A DNA stretch of 64,000 nucleotides, taken from positions 96,843 through 160,842 of the forward strand of contig JBLWSV010000003.1 of NCBI GenBank assembly GCA_048270465.1, read 5' to 3'. This DNA comes from Allomuricauda sp. GTDB taxonomy: Bacteria > Bacteroidota > Bacteroidia > Flavobacteriales > Flavobacteriaceae. The position numbers and the translations under genes are program-made. The notes below the pieces were generated by a model that had not been told where the DNA came from, did not search any database, and saw only the letters and a list, made by a program, of their open reading frames with translations. Positions 55,477-59,846 of this stretch are shown in pieces (position 1 is the stretch's first letter; the number at the start of each line of letters is the position of its first letter).

Positions 55477-57738
55477 ATGTACAGCAAACATAAGATCATC
55501 ACACTATTGTCCATCCTTTTGAGTGCTTTTGGAATGGCTCAGGAAACCAACAGTGGCCCACCCCCAAAAGTGGGATTGGTGCTCAGTGGTGGCGGAGCAA
55601 AGGGATTGGCCCACATTGGTGCACTCAAGGTCATCGAAGAAGCGGGCGTAAAGGTCGATTATATTGGAGGTACCAGCATGGGGGCCATAGTCGGGGCTCT
55701 TTACGCATCGGGCTATTCGGCCCAAGAGCTAGACTCCATATTCAGGGTCACTGACTTCGCAAGCCTTATACAAGACAATGTGCCAAGGGGAGCCAAGACC
55801 TTCTATGAAAAGGAAAATTCCGAACGCTACGCGCTCACCCTTCCCTTTACCAACTTCAAGGTGACCTTTCCGCAGGCCATTTCTGGCGGACAGAACATTT
55901 ACAATGAACTGGTACGCTTGCTGTTCCATGTCAAGGATATTCAAGATTTTAAAAAGTTGCCCATCCCATTTTTGTGCATGGCCACCAATGTGGAGACCGG
56001 GGAACAGGTATTGTTGGACCAAGGGTTTCTTCCAGAGGCCATTGTGGCCAGTGGCACATTTCCCTCTTTGTTCGAACCTTCTGAAATTGATGGTGACATT
56101 TTGATAGATGGGGGGGTCGTGAACAACTATCCCATAGACAGGGTCAAGGCCATGGGTGCGGATATCATCATTGGGGTGGATGTGCAACACGACCTGGCCA
56201 CCCGGGAATCCCTTTCATCGGCCACGGAGATTTTGTTGCAGATCAACAATTACCGAACGGTGAACGACATGAAGAAAAAATCGGAGGAAACGGATATTTA
56301 CATCAGGCCGGCCATTGATGAGTTCTCCGTGATCGATTTTGGGCGCAGCAAGGAAATCGTGGAGAGTGGTGAAGCAGCGGCAAAGGAAAAAATAACAGAA
56401 CTCAGGGCAATTGCTAGTGTCCAAAAGCATACCCCAAAACGTAGAAAAAGAATCCAGTTGATGGACAGCTTGACCATCAATAGGATGATCATACAGGGAA
56501 ACGATCGGTACACCAGAGGATACATCAAAGGAAAACTGAGGTTCAGCCTGGCCGAAAAAATTGCCTTCGACGAATTGAAACAGGGCATCAACAACCTTTC
56601 AGCCACAGGAAACTTCAAGGCAATAAGGTATGAGTTGGCATCCAATGGCCTGGGTACCGATCTGATTTTGAAGTTGAAGGAGAACCCGACCAAAATGTTC
56701 ATCAAAATGTCGGCCCACTATGATGACCTGTACAAGAGTTCGGCCCTCATCAACCTTACCAAAAAGAATTTCCTGATGAAGGACGATGTGGCCTCTTTTG
56801 ATTTTATCCTGGGCGATCACATACGTTACAATATGCAATACTATCTGGACAAAGGATATTATTGGAGCTTTGGTGTCAACTCCAAATTTACCGACTTCAA
56901 TTCTGAGATTGATTATTCGCTGATCCAAGGTAATTTTGATGTGCCATCTGACCCAAATATCCGTAGGGTCAATCTCGATGTCACCGATTTGACCAACCAG
57001 ATCTATCTACAGACCGTATTGCGCGAAGAATTTGCATTCAGGGTGGGTGCCGAGCACAAACTCCTAAAATATAGCACCCGGACACTCAACCAATTGGGTG
57101 AAGGTCTGGAGGTGGCCTCGACCTCTGAAAGGACCTATTTTGAAAACTCCAATTACTTCAGTGCCTTCGGAAAAATCACTTTGGATACCTATGACGACAA
57201 ATATTTTCCCACCAAGGGCCTCCTTTTTGACAGTGATTTTCACCTGTACCTGTTTTCATCGGATTTCAATGACAATTTTAGGGAATTTTCAGTGGGCAAA
57301 GGCCGATTGGGCACCGTTGTCCCTTTGTTCCATAACTTGAGCTTAAATATAGAAGCAGAGGGCGGGGTAAAACTGGGCACCTCCGGGGTAACCTCTTTTG
57401 ACTTCGTGCTGGGCGGTTTCGGCAACGACTTTGTGAACAATTTTGTGCCCTTTTTCGGTTATGATTTTTTAAGTCTTCCAGGGAACAGTTTTGTCAAAGG
57501 CTACGGAAGATTGGACTACAGGGTGGCCCCAAAGAACCATATCCTTTTTTCGGCAAATTTTGCCAATGTGGCCGATGATCTTTTTAGGACTGGCGACTGG
57601 TTTTCAGAGCCCAACTTTTTGGGTTATGGATTGGGATATGGCTTTGAATCGTTCCTTGGCCCCATCCAAATTTACTATTCTTGGTCCCCAGAGATAAAAA
57701 ATGACAGTATTTTCTTTAGTGTTGGCTTTTGGTTCTGA
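55477..57738 (+). CDS. Patatin-like phospholipase with POTRA and beta-barrel (PlpD-like)
   Basis: Signal peptide; LSGGGAKG, GTSMG (GxSxG), DGG; C-terminal barrel ending FSVGFWF. Confidence 0.9.
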   Translation: MYSKHKIITLLSILLSAFGMAQETNSGPPPKVGLVLSGGGAKGLAHIGALKVIEEAGVKVDYIGGTSMGAIVGALYASGYSAQELDSIFRVTDFASLIQDNVPRGAKTFYEKENSERYALTLPFTNFKVTFPQAISGGQNIYNELVRLLFHVKDIQDFKKLPIPFLCMATNVETGEQVLLDQGFLPEAIVASGTFPSLFEPSEIDGDILIDGGVVNNYPIDRVKAMGADIIIGVDVQHDLATRESLSSATEILLQINNYRTVNDMKKKSEETDIYIRPAIDEFSVIDFGRSKEIVESGEAAAKEKITELRAIASVQKHTPKRRKRIQLMDSLTINRMIIQGNDRYTRGYIKGKLRFSLAEKIAFDELKQGINNLSATGNFKAIRYELASNGLGTDLILKLKENPTKMFIKMSAHYDDLYKSSALINLTKKNFLMKDDVASFDFILGDHIRYNMQYYLDKGYYWSFGVNSKFTDFNSEIDYSLIQGNFDVPSDPNIRRVNLDVTDLTNQIYLQTVLREEFAFRVGAEHKLLKYSTRTLNQLGEGLEVASTSERTYFENSNYFSAFGKITLDTYDDKYFPTKGLLFDSDFHLYLFSSDFNDNFREFSVGKGRLGTVVPLFHNLSLNIEAEGGVKLGTSGVTSFDFVLGGFGNDFVNNFVPFFGYDFLSLPGNSFVKGYGRLDYRVAPKNHILFSANFANVADDLFRTGDWFSEPNFLGYGLGYGFESFLGPIQIYYSWSPEIKNDSIFFSVGFWF

Positions 57739-57864
57739 TACCAAGTGTTTGCCAAACACCCCTGTTTTCTTAATAATTTGCCAAAAAAATGGGCTTGGGC
57801 CATCAAAAAAGCAGAAGTATAGTTAAAGTCCGTTAAAAACTCTTTTTCCTACAAAACCTTGATC

Positions 57865-57979
57865 TATATTTGCATCAGATAAGGGGTGGTTCCCTTATGA
57901 CTTTAAGTATTGGTTTTTCATAATTTAAAGTTTGGTTGGTTATTTAGGAAAAGCCCAGTTTCAAGACTGGGCTTTTTTT
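57865..57979 (+). ncRNA. Candidate small RNA (own promoter, 5' hairpin, intrinsic terminator)
   Basis: TATATTTG at 57865-57872; hairpin ATAAGGG/CCCTTAT 57879-57898; terminator 57949-57979; no plus-strand ORF seen. Confidence 0.55.
57949..57979 (+). terminator. Intrinsic terminator
   Basis: AAAAGCCCAGT-TTCAAG-ACTGGGC-T7. Confidence 0.88.
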
Positions 57980-58071
57980 GTACATACTATTTTGGAACAA
58001 GTTTTGTTTAAGTATATGTAAAGCAAACAGCCCCAACACCAATTTTGTTATTTTTATATCAAGTAAAATAT

Positions 58072-58851
58072 ATGAAAAAGATACTTCTTCTACTTTTCCT
58101 AGTGATGGCCATCCCTATGGCGGGACAAAAGTTCCAGCCCGCTTTTAAGTCCGGGGAGTGGCTCAAGTTCAGGATCCACTACGGAATTTTGAATGCTAGC
58201 TACGCCACCATGCACCTTACTTCAAAGACTTTGGACAGTATTCCTGTGTACCATGTGGTGGGCAATGGAAAAACAACGGGATTCGCGAGTATCTTCTTTA
58301 AGGTGGACGACACTTATGAAAGCTATTTTGGAAGAAGGAACGGACGGCCCTACAAGTTCATCAGAAAAATCGACGAGGGCGGCTATACCAAGGACATAGA
58401 GATCAATTTTGACTATGATAAGAAAAAGGCCGTGCTGACGGACCACAAGAATGGGACCGAAATGGACATTCCCGTGCACAACCAGATCCAAGACCTGATT
58501 TCTGCTTCCTATTTTTTGAGAAACAATTATAACCTTGAAGAGTTCGAAGAGGGACAATCCATAAACCTGGACATGCTCTTTGATGATGATGGGGTGTTCC
58601 AGTTCAAATTGAAATATTTGGGAAAAGAAGTACTCAGAACCAAGTTTGGGAAAGTGGAATGTCTTAAATTTAGGCCCTATGTTCAATCGGGGCGGGTTTT
58701 TAAGGAAAAGGAAAGCCTAACCCTTTGGGTATCGAACGATCTGAACAAAATCCCGATCCGCATCAAGGCAGATTTGGCCGTTGGGTCGCTGAAAGCCGAT
58801 CTGGAAGCGTACAATGGATTGAGGAACCAGTTTAAAATCATAATGAATTAG
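58072..58851 (+). CDS. DUF3108 family exported protein
   Basis: Start ATG 58072; GEWLKFRIHYG, FKVDDTYESY, LWVSNDLNKIPIRIKA.LAVGSLKA. Confidence 0.82.
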   Translation: MKKILLLLFLVMAIPMAGQKFQPAFKSGEWLKFRIHYGILNASYATMHLTSKTLDSIPVYHVVGNGKTTGFASIFFKVDDTYESYFGRRNGRPYKFIRKIDEGGYTKDIEINFDYDKKKAVLTDHKNGTEMDIPVHNQIQDLISASYFLRNNYNLEEFEEGQSINLDMLFDDDGVFQFKLKYLGKEVLRTKFGKVECLKFRPYVQSGRVFKEKESLTLWVSNDLNKIPIRIKADLAVGSLKADLEAYNGLRNQFKIIMN

Positions 58852-58865
58852 TTAGTACGGCATTA

Positions 58866-59846
58866 ATGGAAAATGGTGCAAAAATCCAGTCACAGATCAA
58901 CAAACTAGAAGAAAAGTACAAAAACTCGGGGCAAGACCTGAGTTCCTATCTGGACGGGCTCCTCTACCAAAGATATCTCACCTATTGGGACTACATCCAT
59001 TTGGACACCCTTTTGAGCATCCAAGTGCCGCGCACCCATTTTCCGGATGAAGAGATCTTCATCATGTACCACCAGATCACCGAACTCTATTTCAAGCTCA
59101 TCATCCATGAACAAAAACAGATTGTCGAGGACAAGTCCCAAGATGTTCCCTTTTTTATTGAAAAAGTAAACAGGATCAACAACTATTTCAAGGCACTTAT
59201 TTCCTCCTTCAGCATCATGATCAAGGGAATGGAGCGCGAACAGTTCCTTCGCTATCGAATGGCCCTGCTTCCCGCAAGCGGTTTCCAATCGGCCCAATAC
59301 AGGATGATCGAGATCTATGCGACCCCGTTGGAAAATTTGGTGCACCATACCGAAAGACATTCTTTTTCATCACAAGACAGCATTGAGGAGCTCTTTGAGC
59401 ATATCTATTGGAAAAAAGGGGCGACCGATCTGGCAACCGGTGAAAAAACCTTGACCCTGAAACAGTTTGAGGCGAGATATACCCCTAGGCTGTTGAGGAT
59501 AGCCACCCAAGTGAAAAACAGTACCATTTATCACAAATACCTCCAGCTCCCCGATGCATCCAAGGACAATGAAGCGCTGAAAAAAGCGTTAAGGGAATTG
59601 GACCTGAACGCCAATGTGAACTGGCCGTTGATGCACATGGGATCTGCATACAGGTATTTGACCAAGGACAACAAGGACGTACAGGCTACTGGGGGAACAA
59701 ATTGGAAAGAGTTTTTGCCCCCAAGTTTTCAAAAAATAATATTTTTCCCAACTTTGTATTCAGAAGAAGAACTGGACACATGGGGAAAACAATGGGTGGA
59801 TCATATTTTTAACCCGGCAAACAAGGATTACAAGGAATTAGGATAA
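58866..59846 (+). CDS. kynA: Tryptophan 2,3-dioxygenase family protein
   Basis: YWDYIHLD, FIMYHQITEL, PASGFQSAQYR, proximal His LMHMG, TGGT. Confidence 0.85.
   Translation: MENGAKIQSQINKLEEKYKNSGQDLSSYLDGLLYQRYLTYWDYIHLDTLLSIQVPRTHFPDEEIFIMYHQITELYFKLIIHEQKQIVEDKSQDVPFFIEKVNRINNYFKALISSFSIMIKGMEREQFLRYRMALLPASGFQSAQYRMIEIYATPLENLVHHTERHSFSSQDSIEELFEHIYWKKGATDLATGEKTLTLKQFEARYTPRLLRIATQVKNSTIYHKYLQLPDASKDNEALKKALRELDLNANVNWPLMHMGSAYRYLTKDNKDVQATGGTNWKEFLPPSFQKIIFFPTLYSEEELDTWGKQWVDHIFNPANKDYKELG

What the first reader, a model, noticed from the sequence alone, without database searches (positions are those of the whole stretch)
57865..57979. Self-contained ~100-nt transcript whose core is the reverse complement of a translation start site
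Seen: consensus -7 element, 7-bp 5' hairpin, ~50-nt U-rich single-stranded core and strong terminator, all within the patatin-DUF3108 spacer. The core's reverse complement reads AAATAACCAACCAAACTTTAAATT-ATG-AAA-AAC-CAA-TAC-TTA-AAG-TCA-TAA (MKNQYLKS*, 57921-57895). Established: Bacteroidota initiate translation on A-rich, SD-less regions of this kind. Inference: (a) a trans-acting sRNA that masks start regions of mRNAs beginning ...AACCAAAC..ATTATGAAAA, (b) the antisense partner of a minus-strand micro-ORF, or (c) an attenuator for DUF3108-kynA-M23-pgi. Model (a) would be a way to do sRNA repression without Shine-Dalgarno sequences.
Basis: partly seen in the sequence, partly recalled or inferred. 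Interest (0 to 1): 0.75.

Follow-up and report, generated by a model that had tools for sequence, protein, structure and literature searches.

The report
Orthologue of flavobacterial small RNA Rfp18
The ~103-nt element is a real, independently transcribed small RNA, but it is the counterpart in a marine Flagellimonas/Muricauda-type genome of Rfp18, a small RNA already described in Flavobacterium psychrophilum. The new points are its family-wide near-invariance and relatives that share its pairing motif.

Summary
Window 57865-57979 (+) carries a TAnnTTTG promoter box, an 8-bp 5' hairpin, a second A/U-rich hairpin, a single-stranded G/U-rich linker and a strong terminator (fold z = -5.7).

No Rfam 15 family matches. 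The RNA is nevertheless the orthologue of Rfp18 (Guerin et al. 2021, PMC9723704). It shares the same three sequence blocks in the same order, and the same position upstream of a DUF3108 gene and tryptophan 2,3-dioxygenase.

- **Conservation:** positions 57878-57958 are identical in 30 species of the genus, while the flanking genes are about 80% identical. UUUUCAU and UUUGGUUGGUUA are invariant in 98 aligned homologues from many Flavobacteriaceae genera.
- **Structure:** both hairpins and the terminator show compensatory changes.
pairing over A-rich, SD-less start regions is what the paper predicted for Rfp18 (CCAACC...AAAUUAUGAAAA). However, deleting rfp18 lowered two target mRNAs, so repression is not shown.
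- **Targets here:** unresolved. This genome lacks the M43 and M36 proteases predicted as targets in F. psychrophilum.
- **Rejected:** the micro-ORF and attenuator models.

Seen in passing: the same seed-plus-terminator module also sits in a conserved mRNA 3'UTR of this genome. In 76 of 300 genera it also occurs in RNAs with sigma-54-type promoters, and I found no description of these.

The parts
57822..57840 (+). Conserved upstream box GTTAAAGTCCGTTAAAAAC: GTTAA direct repeats about 10 bp apart, just upstream of the -33 position. Candidate activator-binding site.
   Evidence: Invariant in 30 species of the genus. At family level the pattern is GTTAA-N(7-8)-GTTAAAGTN-NGTTAAAAC, with the central GTTAAAG kept in at least 95% of 50 genera. 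Function is inferred.
57865..57872 (+). Bacteroidota sigmaA-type -7 promoter box TATATTTG (TAnnTTTG).
   Evidence: Read. A TAnnTTT[G/A] box lies 5-10 nt before the first hairpin in nearly all of the 52 family homologues. Rfp18 of F. psychrophilum has a mapped TSS with a sigmaA (SM1) promoter.
57877..57980 (+). The small RNA itself, about 103 nt; orthologue of Rfp18. The 5' end is predicted from the promoter box, not mapped.
   Evidence: The covariance model R1 scores it at 123.6 bits.
57879..57898 (+). Stem-loop 1: AUAAGGGG / UCCCUUAU with loop UGGU.
   Evidence: All 8 pairs show compensatory changes across 71 distinct homologues, and 94% of cells are paired. The tip GGGGUGGUUCCC is shared with Rfp18.
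57900..57931 (+). Stem-loop 2: ACUUUAAGU / AUUUAAAGU. Its 14-nt loop shows UUUUUCAUA, with the anti-start codon CAU at 57919-57921.
   Evidence: RNAfold. Five of 9 pairs show changes on both sides. In the Flavobacterium clade the 5' arm is replaced by AUAAAUU, which again pairs with AAUUUAU. UUUUCAU is invariant in 98 of 98 aligned homologues.
57931..57948 (+). Single-stranded seed UUUGGUUGGUUAUUUAGG. The dodecamer UUUGGUUGGUUA (57931-57942) is the most conserved part.
   Evidence: Invariant in 98 of 98 aligned homologues. Unpaired probability is about 0.99 over the first 13 nt. GGUUGG is the seed named for Rfp18. The same 17-mer recurs before another terminator in this genome.
57949..57979 (+). 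Rho-independent terminator: stem AAAAGCCCAGU / ACUGGGCUUUU followed by a U-tract.
   Evidence: All 9 modelled pairs show compensatory changes and 99% of cells are paired. On the MAFFT alignment 10 of 11 pairs covary.
57984..58014 (+). Conserved box with palindrome core AACAAg-TTTTGTT, located between the sRNA terminator and the DUF3108 gene. Candidate operator of the DUF3108-kynA promoter; not part of the sRNA.
   Evidence: Conserved in the genus and at family level. It stays next to the DUF3108 gene when the spacer is longer. Function is inferred.
58049..58056 (+). -7-like box TATTTTTA (TAnnTTTA in relatives), 15 nt before the DUF3108 start codon. Likely the DUF3108 gene's own promoter.
   Evidence: by sequence only.
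58072..58851 (+). DUF3108 gene (259 aa, signal peptide), followed by tryptophan 2,3-dioxygenase at 58866-59846. This is the conserved downstream neighbour of the sRNA.
   Evidence: Pfam PF11306 at 1e-57 and PF03301 at 1.4e-22. DUF3108 lies downstream on the same strand in 46 of 50 genera and in 67 of 79 further copies. The arrangement is the same in F. psychrophilum.

Best explanation
Window 57877-57980 (+) encodes the orthologue of Rfp18, a small RNA of the Flavobacteriaceae, in a genome whose closest relatives among named records are Flagellimonas/Allomuricauda/Muricauda.

It is its own transcription unit. It has a sigmaA-type TAnnTTTG promoter with a conserved upstream GTTAA-repeat box, which is a likely activator site, and it ends at a strong intrinsic terminator.

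The RNA folds into two hairpins and a terminator. This leaves two invariant stretches exposed: UUUUCAU in the loop of hairpin 2, and UUUGGUUGGUUA in the linker before the terminator.

The most likely mechanism is trans base-pairing of these two stretches, collinearly, with the A/C-rich, G-poor, Shine-Dalgarno-less translation-initiation regions of a set of mRNAs (...AACCAACC...AUGAAAA...). Many such start regions belong to exported proteins. Pairing would change translation and/or mRNA stability.

- **Shown here:** existence, conservation, structure with covariation, and orthology to Rfp18.
- **Shown by others in F. psychrophilum:** a discrete 97-nt transcript with a mapped TSS; growth-phase and colony induction; reduced levels of two predicted target mRNAs in the deletion mutant.
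- **Inferred:** direct pairing, the sign of regulation, and the targets in this organism.
For: **Orthology**
- Rfp18 and this RNA share GGGGUGGUUCCC, UUUUCAUAAUUUA and UUUGGUUGGUUA, in the same order, before a terminator.
- Both lie directly upstream, on the same strand, of a ~256-259-aa exported protein gene (Pfam DUF3108 here) and tryptophan 2,3-dioxygenase.
- A chain of intermediates links them. Model R1 finds 72 homologues at 28-128 bits, including Flavobacterium, Myroides, Capnocytophaga, Kordia, Maribacter and Arenibacter.

**Own transcription unit**
- A TAnnTTT[G/A] box lies 5-10 nt before the first hairpin in nearly all of the 52 homologues aligned.
- The terminator stem covaries.
- Rfp18 is classed as an independent transcript with a sigmaA promoter.

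**Structure**
- 95.5% of 1814 cells are paired, and 22 of 26 pairs show changes on both sides.
- 0 of 500 shuffles reach the observed values, and slid controls give 25-60% paired.

**Seed**
- UUUUCAU and UUUGGUUGGUUA are invariant in 98 of 98 homologues and are predicted unpaired.
- The published duplexes use exactly these stretches over mRNA -25 to +7.
- Independent RNAs elsewhere carry the same CAU...GGUUGGUUA module.

**Regulation**
- Rfp18 ranges from log2 9.4 to 15.5 across conditions. It is low in exponential phase and high in stationary phase and colonies.
- In the rfp18 deletion mutant, fpp1 and THC0290_0300 mRNA levels fall.
Against: - No direct expression evidence for this organism. 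Only assembled contigs of metagenomic RNA libraries could be laid, and they run from about 57890-57905 through the terminator into the DUF3108 gene. They show no discrete 100-nt species.
- Target prediction in this genome is no better than chance. Smith-Waterman complementarity scores of start regions do not exceed shuffled cores. Seed duplex energies do not exceed 31 shuffled seeds. CCAACC is not over-represented upstream of starts.
- The protease families predicted as Rfp18 targets in F. psychrophilum (M43, M36) were not found here.
- In F. psychrophilum the deletion had no growth or bulk-protease phenotype, and the target mRNAs decreased. Direct pairing and start-site masking are therefore unproven.
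- Identity over 80 nt in 30 species is more constraint than a pairing seed alone needs.
Confidence: 0.75

Rival explanations
1. The RNA acts mainly by binding a protein, not mRNAs. It could be a ligand, sponge or scaffold for an RNA-binding protein of Bacteroidota, which lack Hfq and ProQ. The protein would recognise the UGGU hairpin tip and/or the GGUUGGUUA-plus-terminator module. Alternatively, the module is a chaperone-binding platform that serves pairing.
For: - An 80-nt stretch is identical in 30 species, including hairpin loops not involved in the published duplexes.
- The UGGU-tipped hairpin and the GGUUGGUUA-plus-terminator module recur together in sigma-54-type relatives whose other sequence differs.
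- Start regions of this genome show no excess of complementarity to the seed.
Against: - No partner protein is known, and none was tested here.
- The seed is complementary to real start regions in F. psychrophilum, with CopraRNA p down to 2e-7, and two predicted targets respond to the deletion.
- The CAU...GGUUGG arrangement looks like the antisense of a start region in both Rfp18 and its relatives.
Confidence: 0.12
2. The element is a cis-acting leader or attenuator of the DUF3108-kynA-M23-pgi genes. The terminator stops or passes transcription that started at the sRNA promoter, and the short RNA is a by-product.
For: - Near-universal same-strand linkage to DUF3108 and tryptophan 2,3-dioxygenase: 46 of 50 genera and 67 of 79 further copies.
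- Contigs from three RNA libraries start at 57890-57905 and continue past the terminator into the DUF3108 gene. In run X2 the depth is 19.6, against 2-4 upstream.
Against: - No segment is able to pair with the terminator's 5' arm to form an anti-terminator.
- A conserved palindromic box and a -7-like box lie between the terminator and the DUF3108 gene, and they travel with that gene when the spacer lengthens.
- In F. psychrophilum the RNA varies about 60-fold while the downstream gene stays within log2 10.4-12.1 (r = 0.04). This is the opposite of attenuator behaviour.
- The authors class Rfp18 as an independent transcript.
- The same seed module exists at unrelated loci.
- The contigs carry no strand or end information and come from metagenomes.
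Confidence: 0.1
3. The functional product is the minus-strand 8-codon ORF (MKNQYLKS, 57921-57895), and the plus-strand RNA is its antisense regulator.
For: An ATG-initiated frame with a stop exists on the minus strand in this genus. It is preceded by an A-rich stretch.
Against: - Peptide length and sequence differ between clades, by my own reading of the aligned homologues and of Rfp18: 8 aa here, 6 aa in F. psychrophilum, longer in others.
- Conservation is at nucleotide level and extends equally outside the frame.
- I saw no TAnnTTTG box on the minus strand within the 30 nt available.
- The terminator hairpin also blocks entry from the right.
Confidence: 0.01

Closest known systems
Rfp18 of Flavobacterium psychrophilum (Guerin et al. 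2021, ISME Commun 1:33, PMC9723704; SI Appendix D11)
   Same: - About 100 nt long, with a sigmaA-type promoter.
- A hairpin tipped GGGGUGGUUCCC, then a hairpin showing UUUUCAU, then UUUGGUUGGUUA before an intrinsic terminator.
- The same downstream neighbours: an exported protein of unknown function, then tryptophan 2,3-dioxygenase.
- Predicted pairing across SD-less start regions, with GGUUGG as the seed.
   Different: - A different genus (Flagellimonas/Muricauda-type, marine). The upstream gene is patatin-Omp85 here and hppD there.
- The 5' arm of hairpin 2 differs, but the change is compensated.
- The linker is shorter. The published fold has a weak third stem over the seed, which is single-stranded here.
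- The M43 and M36 protease targets predicted there were not found in this genome.
- The paper reports conservation within the genus Flavobacterium. Here it is found across many genera of the family and not outside it among those searched.
Base-pairing sRNAs of Bacteroides (GibS, MasB, RteR, BTnc231 and others in Rfam 15)
   Same: They are Hfq-independent Bacteroidota sRNAs with an intrinsic terminator. They are proposed to pair at or near SD-less start regions.
   Different: There is no sequence or structure relationship. The best scores are BTnc231 at 23.3 bits (threshold 80.4), GibS at 22.3 (115) and rteR at 19.2 (72).
Vibrio Qrr1-5 (sigma-54-dependent sibling sRNAs with one shared seed)
   Same: This is an analogy for the relatives seen in other genera, not for this locus. 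Those relatives are several copies per genome, some in tandem, with -24/-12 promoters and one identical pairing region.
   Different: - Unrelated sequence and phylum, and no Hfq.
- The copy in this window has a sigmaA-type promoter.
- Sigma-54 dependence of the relatives is inferred from sequence only.

Membership tests
Rfp18 sRNA family (Guerin et al. 2021) | Shared sequence blocks in the same order: GGGGUGGUUCCC, UUUUCAUAAUUUA, UUUGGUUGGUUA, then a terminator. | tested here: met
   The published Rfp18 sequence was compared with window 57877-57980. Intermediates are linked by alignment and by covariance model.
Rfp18 sRNA family (Guerin et al. 2021) | Independent transcription unit with a sigmaA (TAnnTTTG) promoter and an intrinsic terminator, about 100 nt long. 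| tested here: met
   By sequence and conservation only. The TSS was not mapped in this organism.
Rfp18 sRNA family (Guerin et al. 2021) | Stem-loop architecture supported by covariation. | tested here: met
   SL1 8 of 8 pairs, SL2 5 of 9 pairs and terminator 9 of 9 pairs show changes on both sides; 95.5% of cells are paired. Caveat: the alignment was fitted to the model. The published fold has four stems; here there are three, and the seed is unpaired.
Rfp18 sRNA family (Guerin et al. 2021) | Genomic context upstream of the exported-protein gene and tryptophan 2,3-dioxygenase. | tested here: met
Rfp18 sRNA family (Guerin et al. 2021) | Detected as a discrete transcript. | tested here: inconclusive
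   Only Logan contigs of metagenomic RNA libraries were available. The contigs begin at 57890-57905 and read through into the DUF3108 gene, with no strand or end information.
Rfp18 sRNA family (Guerin et al. 2021) | Controls metalloprotease mRNAs (M43, M36, Fpp1). | tested here: not met
   PF05572 (M43) and PF02128 (M36) were not found in this genome; the M36 search rang in no control genome, so it does not show absence. This concerns the regulon, not the identity of the RNA, so targets here must differ.
Any Rfam 15 family (including Flavo-1, Bacteroides sRNAs, PyrR, leaders) | Score at or above the family's gathering threshold. | tested here: not met
   No hits at gathering score in the whole window. 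The best sub-threshold hit is PyrR at 27.3 bits against a threshold of 54. Flavo-1 is not listed even at E <= 10.
Transcription attenuator / leader of the downstream operon | An alternative anti-terminator structure; no promoter between the terminator and the gene; downstream expression set by read-through. | tested here: not met
   No complementary partner exists for the terminator arm. A conserved promoter-like region lies in between. Correlation with the downstream gene in F. psychrophilum arrays is r = 0.04.

The most novel reading that the evidence does not exclude
Rfp18 may be only the sigmaA-driven member of a larger, undescribed family of 'anti-start-region' RNAs in Flavobacteriaceae. 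All members would carry the same exposed module: CAU, a U-rich spacer, GGUUGGUUA, then a terminator. Most also carry a UGGU-tipped hairpin.

The family would include:
- Units with sigma-54-type promoters, found in about a quarter of genera and sometimes in tandem arrays, in the manner of Qrr sRNAs.
- Copies embedded in mRNA 3'UTRs. One is in this genome at G000:C3:228773-228789 and is invariant across the genus.

Together they would form a multi-input post-transcriptional system acting on SD-less start regions, or they would mark the binding site of a still unknown RNA chaperone of Bacteroidota.
Probability: 0.4. Interest if true: 0.7.

Novelty: new member of a known kind. Interest (0 to 1): 0.4.

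Why it matters
Bacteroidota start translation without Shine-Dalgarno pairing and lack Hfq and ProQ, so how their small RNAs find and control mRNAs is an open question.

This locus shows that Rfp18, so far a single-genus observation from a fish pathogen, is one of the most conserved non-coding RNAs of the whole family Flavobacteriaceae:
- Its two exposed stretches are invariant.
- Its fold is supported by covariation.
- Its genomic address is fixed.

That makes it a good candidate for an Rfam family and a tractable model for SD-independent sRNA control in marine flavobacteria.

The finding itself is not new biology, because the element and its proposed mode of action are published. The seed-sharing relatives (3'UTR-embedded and sigma-54-type) noticed along the way are the part a specialist would not expect.

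Tried and rejected
- **Rfam:** no family at gathering score. The sub-threshold hits (PyrR, MicC, BTnc231 and others) only reflect a hairpin-plus-terminator shape.
- **Terminator scan:** the simple promoter/terminator scan missed this terminator, probably because its rule counts T after the maximal stem (cause not checked).
- **Plus-strand ORF:** ATG at 57898 gives MTLSIGFS, but it exists only in this species; most relatives have ATA. Rejected.
- **Target prediction in this genome:**
  - RNA.duplexfold on 55-nt start regions gave inflated duplexes with long loops and was unusable.
  - Smith-Waterman complementarity gave a top score of 46, against a shuffled mean top of 47.4.
  - Seed-only duplex energies gave 15 start regions at or below -16 kcal/mol, against 13.5 +/- 8.1 for shuffled seeds. 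The first attempt timed out.
  - CCAACC is not enriched upstream of starts beyond composition.
  - Perfect 8-12-nt seed complements lie before a sodium:solute symporter, a DUF3857/transglutaminase-like protein, an Exo_endo_phos protein, an S10 carboxypeptidase and an M20-like protein. In the symporter's orthologues an ACCAAC-type motif near the start recurs in 5 of 7 species. These are leads only.
- **Protease targets:** M43 and M36 peptidase families were not found in the genome.
- **RNA-seq:** only contigs of metagenomic libraries could be laid. The result is inconclusive for transcript ends.
- **Outside the family:** the covariance-model search of 137 genomes from 17 other families of the order gave only 31-36-bit hits. 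The one inspected (L218) lacks both invariant motifs, so it is a chance hit.
- **RNAalifold:** on the plain MAFFT alignment it recovered only the terminator, because the hairpins are misaligned between clades.
- **Earlier notes of this scan:** nothing found.
- **Literature:** no other paper on Rfp18 or on sigma-54-dependent flavobacterial sRNAs in the held library.

Full report
**1. What is in the sequence**

The finding lies in the 333-nt spacer between two genes. Upstream is a patatin-Omp85 gene (55477-57738, PF01734 + PF19143). Downstream is a DUF3108 gene (58072-58851, PF11306), followed by tryptophan 2,3-dioxygenase, an M23 peptidase and pgi. All are on the plus strand.

- TATATTTG at 57865-57872, matching the Bacteroidota -7 consensus TAnnTTTG.
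- A hairpin AUAAGGGG / UCCCUUAU at 57879-57898, with loop UGGU.
- A terminator at 57949-57979.

RNAfold of 57876-57982 gives -38.5 kcal/mol, against -20.2 +/- 3.2 for shuffles (z = -5.7). Positions 57900-57908 pair with 57923-57931 to form a second hairpin, SL2. The truly exposed parts are therefore the SL2 loop (AUUGGUUUUUCAUA) and the linker UUGGUUGGUUAUUUAGG.

**2. Conservation**

- A blastn search of the spacer found a match in 36 of 36 other genomes of the genus, and none in 24 genomes of other families of the order.
- In an alignment of 30 species, 57878-57958 is identical in every species. The ends of the two flanking genes differ at roughly one position in five, and the rest of the spacer is variable.
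- With the RNA alone as query, roughly 70 of 300 genera of the family gave strong matches (E below 1e-8, 76-97% identity).
These include Arenibacter, Maribacter, Flagellimonas/Allomuricauda, Cellulophaga, Robiginitalea, Kordia, Capnocytophaga, Myroides, Paenimyroides and Flavobacterium.
- The window's own flanks are closest to Allomuricauda/Flagellimonas/Muricauda records.
- In 98 aligned homologues, UUUUCAU and UUUGGUUGGUUA are invariant.
- A TAnnTTT[G/A] box lies 5-10 nt before the first hairpin in nearly all of the 52 family homologues.

**3. Structure**

I built a covariance model from 38 sequences with the three-helix structure and used it to realign 72 homologues. Results on 71 distinct rows:
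- 95.5% of cells form standard pairs, against 79.3% when partners are shuffled and 25-60% when partners are slid.
- 22 of 26 pairs show changes on both sides: SL1 8 of 8, SL2 5 of 9, terminator 9 of 9.

The alignment is fitted to the model, which favours the structure. However, the terminator covariation is also seen on the plain MAFFT alignment. The SL1 and SL2 swaps are also visible by eye. Examples are AUAAG/CUUAU, GUAAG/CUUAC and CAAAAG/CUUUUG. In the Flavobacterium clade a different 5' arm, AUAAAUU, pairs with the conserved AAUUUAU.

**4. Identity**

Rfam 15 has no match. A full-text and supplement search for the invariant dodecamer found it in Table S8/S9 of Guerin et al. 2021 (PMC9723704) as Rfp18 of F. 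psychrophilum.

What the paper reports for Rfp18:
- 97 nt, mapped TSS, sigmaA promoter, terminator.
- It shares GGGGUGGUUCCC, UUUUCAUAAUUUA and UUUGGUUGGUUA with the window's RNA, in the same order.
- It lies between hppD and a 771-nt 'protein of unknown function precursor' gene, followed by tryptophan 2,3-dioxygenase. That is the same downstream context as here.

The linkage is nearly universal. DUF3108 lies downstream on the same strand in 46 of 50 genera and in 67 of 79 further copies, including Flavobacterium and Myroides. The patatin gene is upstream in only 11 of 50.

I therefore file the element as the Rfp18 orthologue. Outside the family, a model search of 137 genomes in 17 other families gave only 31-36-bit hits. 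The one inspected lacks both motifs.

**5. Mechanism**

Guerin et al. predicted, with CopraRNA on Flavobacterium homologues, that Rfp18 pairs across mRNA positions about -25 to +7. Its GGUUGG seed would pair with ...AACCAACC..., and UUUUCAUAAUUU with AAAUUAUGAAAA. The predicted targets encode M43 and M36 metalloproteases, Fpp1, an elastase and an adhesin.

The experimental support is modest:
- The deletion mutant grows normally and has normal bulk protease activity.
- fpp1 and THC0290_0300 mRNAs are lower in stationary phase in the mutant.
- A homologue is transcribed in F. columnare.

The sign and directness of regulation are therefore open.

In the published arrays Rfp18 rises from log2 about 9.5 in exponential phase to 14-15.5 in late growth and in colonies. 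Its level is uncorrelated with the downstream gene (r = 0.04).

In this genome I could not identify targets:
- Complementarity of start regions to the core or the seed does not exceed shuffled controls.
- CCAACC is not enriched.
- The M43 and M36 families were not found.
- Some leads exist, for example a 12-nt perfect complement at -14 to -3 of a sodium:solute symporter, partly kept in orthologues.

**6. Rival readings**

- *Attenuator model.* It has the synteny in its favour, along with contigs from three metagenomic RNA libraries that begin at 57890-57905 and continue into the DUF3108 gene. Against it: there is no anti-terminator. A conserved palindromic box (57984-58014) and a -7-like box (58049-58056) sit between the terminator and the DUF3108 gene and move with that gene. 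The F. psychrophilum expression data also argue against it.
- *Minus-strand micro-ORF.* The peptide is not conserved between clades, and I saw no TAnnTTTG box upstream of it.
- *Protein-binding role.* It cannot be excluded and would explain the extreme invariance.

**7. Seen in passing**

- The 17-mer UUUGGUUGGUUAUUUAG occurs once more in this genome, at G000:C3:228773-228789 on the minus strand. It again lies a few nt before a terminator, but about 40 nt after the stop codon of a conserved lipoprotein gene.
  - In 20 species of the genus the 25-mer around it is invariant and the terminator stem covaries.
- Across the family the pattern occurs in 206 of 301 genomes, often in 2-3 copies. The reversed pattern gave only a handful of hits over all genomes.
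- A subset of 76 of 300 genera has copies 60-90 nt downstream of a TGGCAY-N5-TTG element, which is a sigma-54-type -24/-12 promoter. The control gave 0 hits. Some copies are in tandem arrays. They have a UGGU-tipped hairpin and UUCAUAUUUUUGGUUGGUUAGUUAG exposed.
  - None matches Rfam. I found no paper describing them.
- The sRNA promoter has a conserved upstream box of GTTAA repeats.

**8. Verdict**

Novelty is 'new member of a known kind'. The added value here is:
- the family-wide distribution;
- a covariation-supported structure that could seed an Rfam family;
- the conserved synteny and promoter-proximal boxes;
- the seed-sharing relatives.

Noticed in passing
G000:C3:228773-228789, minus strand (locus L221:1474-1490); about 68 kb beyond the right end of the window: A second copy of the seed UUUGGUUGGUUAUUUAG lies a few nt before a terminator, about 40 nt after the stop codon of a 306-318-aa lipoprotein gene with no Pfam hit. 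This is a 3'UTR position, and a DinB-family gene converges on it. The 25-mer is invariant in 20 species of the genus and the terminator stem covaries. It may be a 3'UTR-derived sibling sRNA.
   Followed up: partly
Other genera of the family, e.g. L289-L299, L250, L255; G316:C16:74377-74942: RNA units of about 110-120 nt carry a sigma-54-type promoter (TGGCAY-N5-TTG), a hairpin tipped GAGUGGUUAC, an exposed UUCAUAUUUUUGGUUGGUUAGUUAG and a terminator. They occur in 76 of 300 genera, against 0 hits for the reversed control, and some form tandem arrays of 2-3. None was found in this genome or in the other genome of its genus that was searched. There is no Rfam match.
   Followed up: partly
window 57822-57840: A conserved GTTAA direct-repeat box (GTTAAAGTCCGTTAAAAAC) lies just upstream of the sRNA promoter. 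It is invariant in the genus, and its core is kept in at least 95% of 50 genera. It is a likely binding site of the regulator behind the growth-phase induction.
   Followed up: partly
window 57984-58014 and 58049-58056: A conserved box with an AACAAn-TTTTGTT palindrome and a TAnnTTTA box lie upstream of the DUF3108 gene. They stay with that gene when the spacer is longer in other genera. They are a probable operator and promoter of DUF3108-kynA.
   Followed up: partly
L077 (G106), L071 (G293), L110 and L133 (Kordia), L156 (Sediminicola): These genomes carry tandem duplicates of the Rfp18-type gene, 280-380 nt apart.
   Followed up: no
window 57898-57924: A G at 57899, found only in a few species, creates a plus-strand ATG and an 8-codon frame (MTLSIGFS). 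Most relatives read ATA, so it is not a conserved ORF.
   Followed up: yes
G000:C19:20753-20770 (locus L081): The 12-mer AACCAACCAAAC, a perfect complement of the seed, sits at -14 to -3 of a sodium:solute symporter gene (PF00474). An ACCAAC-type motif near the start recurs in 5 of 7 orthologues, although the UTRs have diverged. It is a candidate target only.
   Followed up: partly
window 55477-57738: The 'patatin' gene encodes a two-domain protein: an N-terminal patatin phospholipase domain and a C-terminal Omp85-superfamily barrel (PF19143, 7e-152).
   Followed up: no
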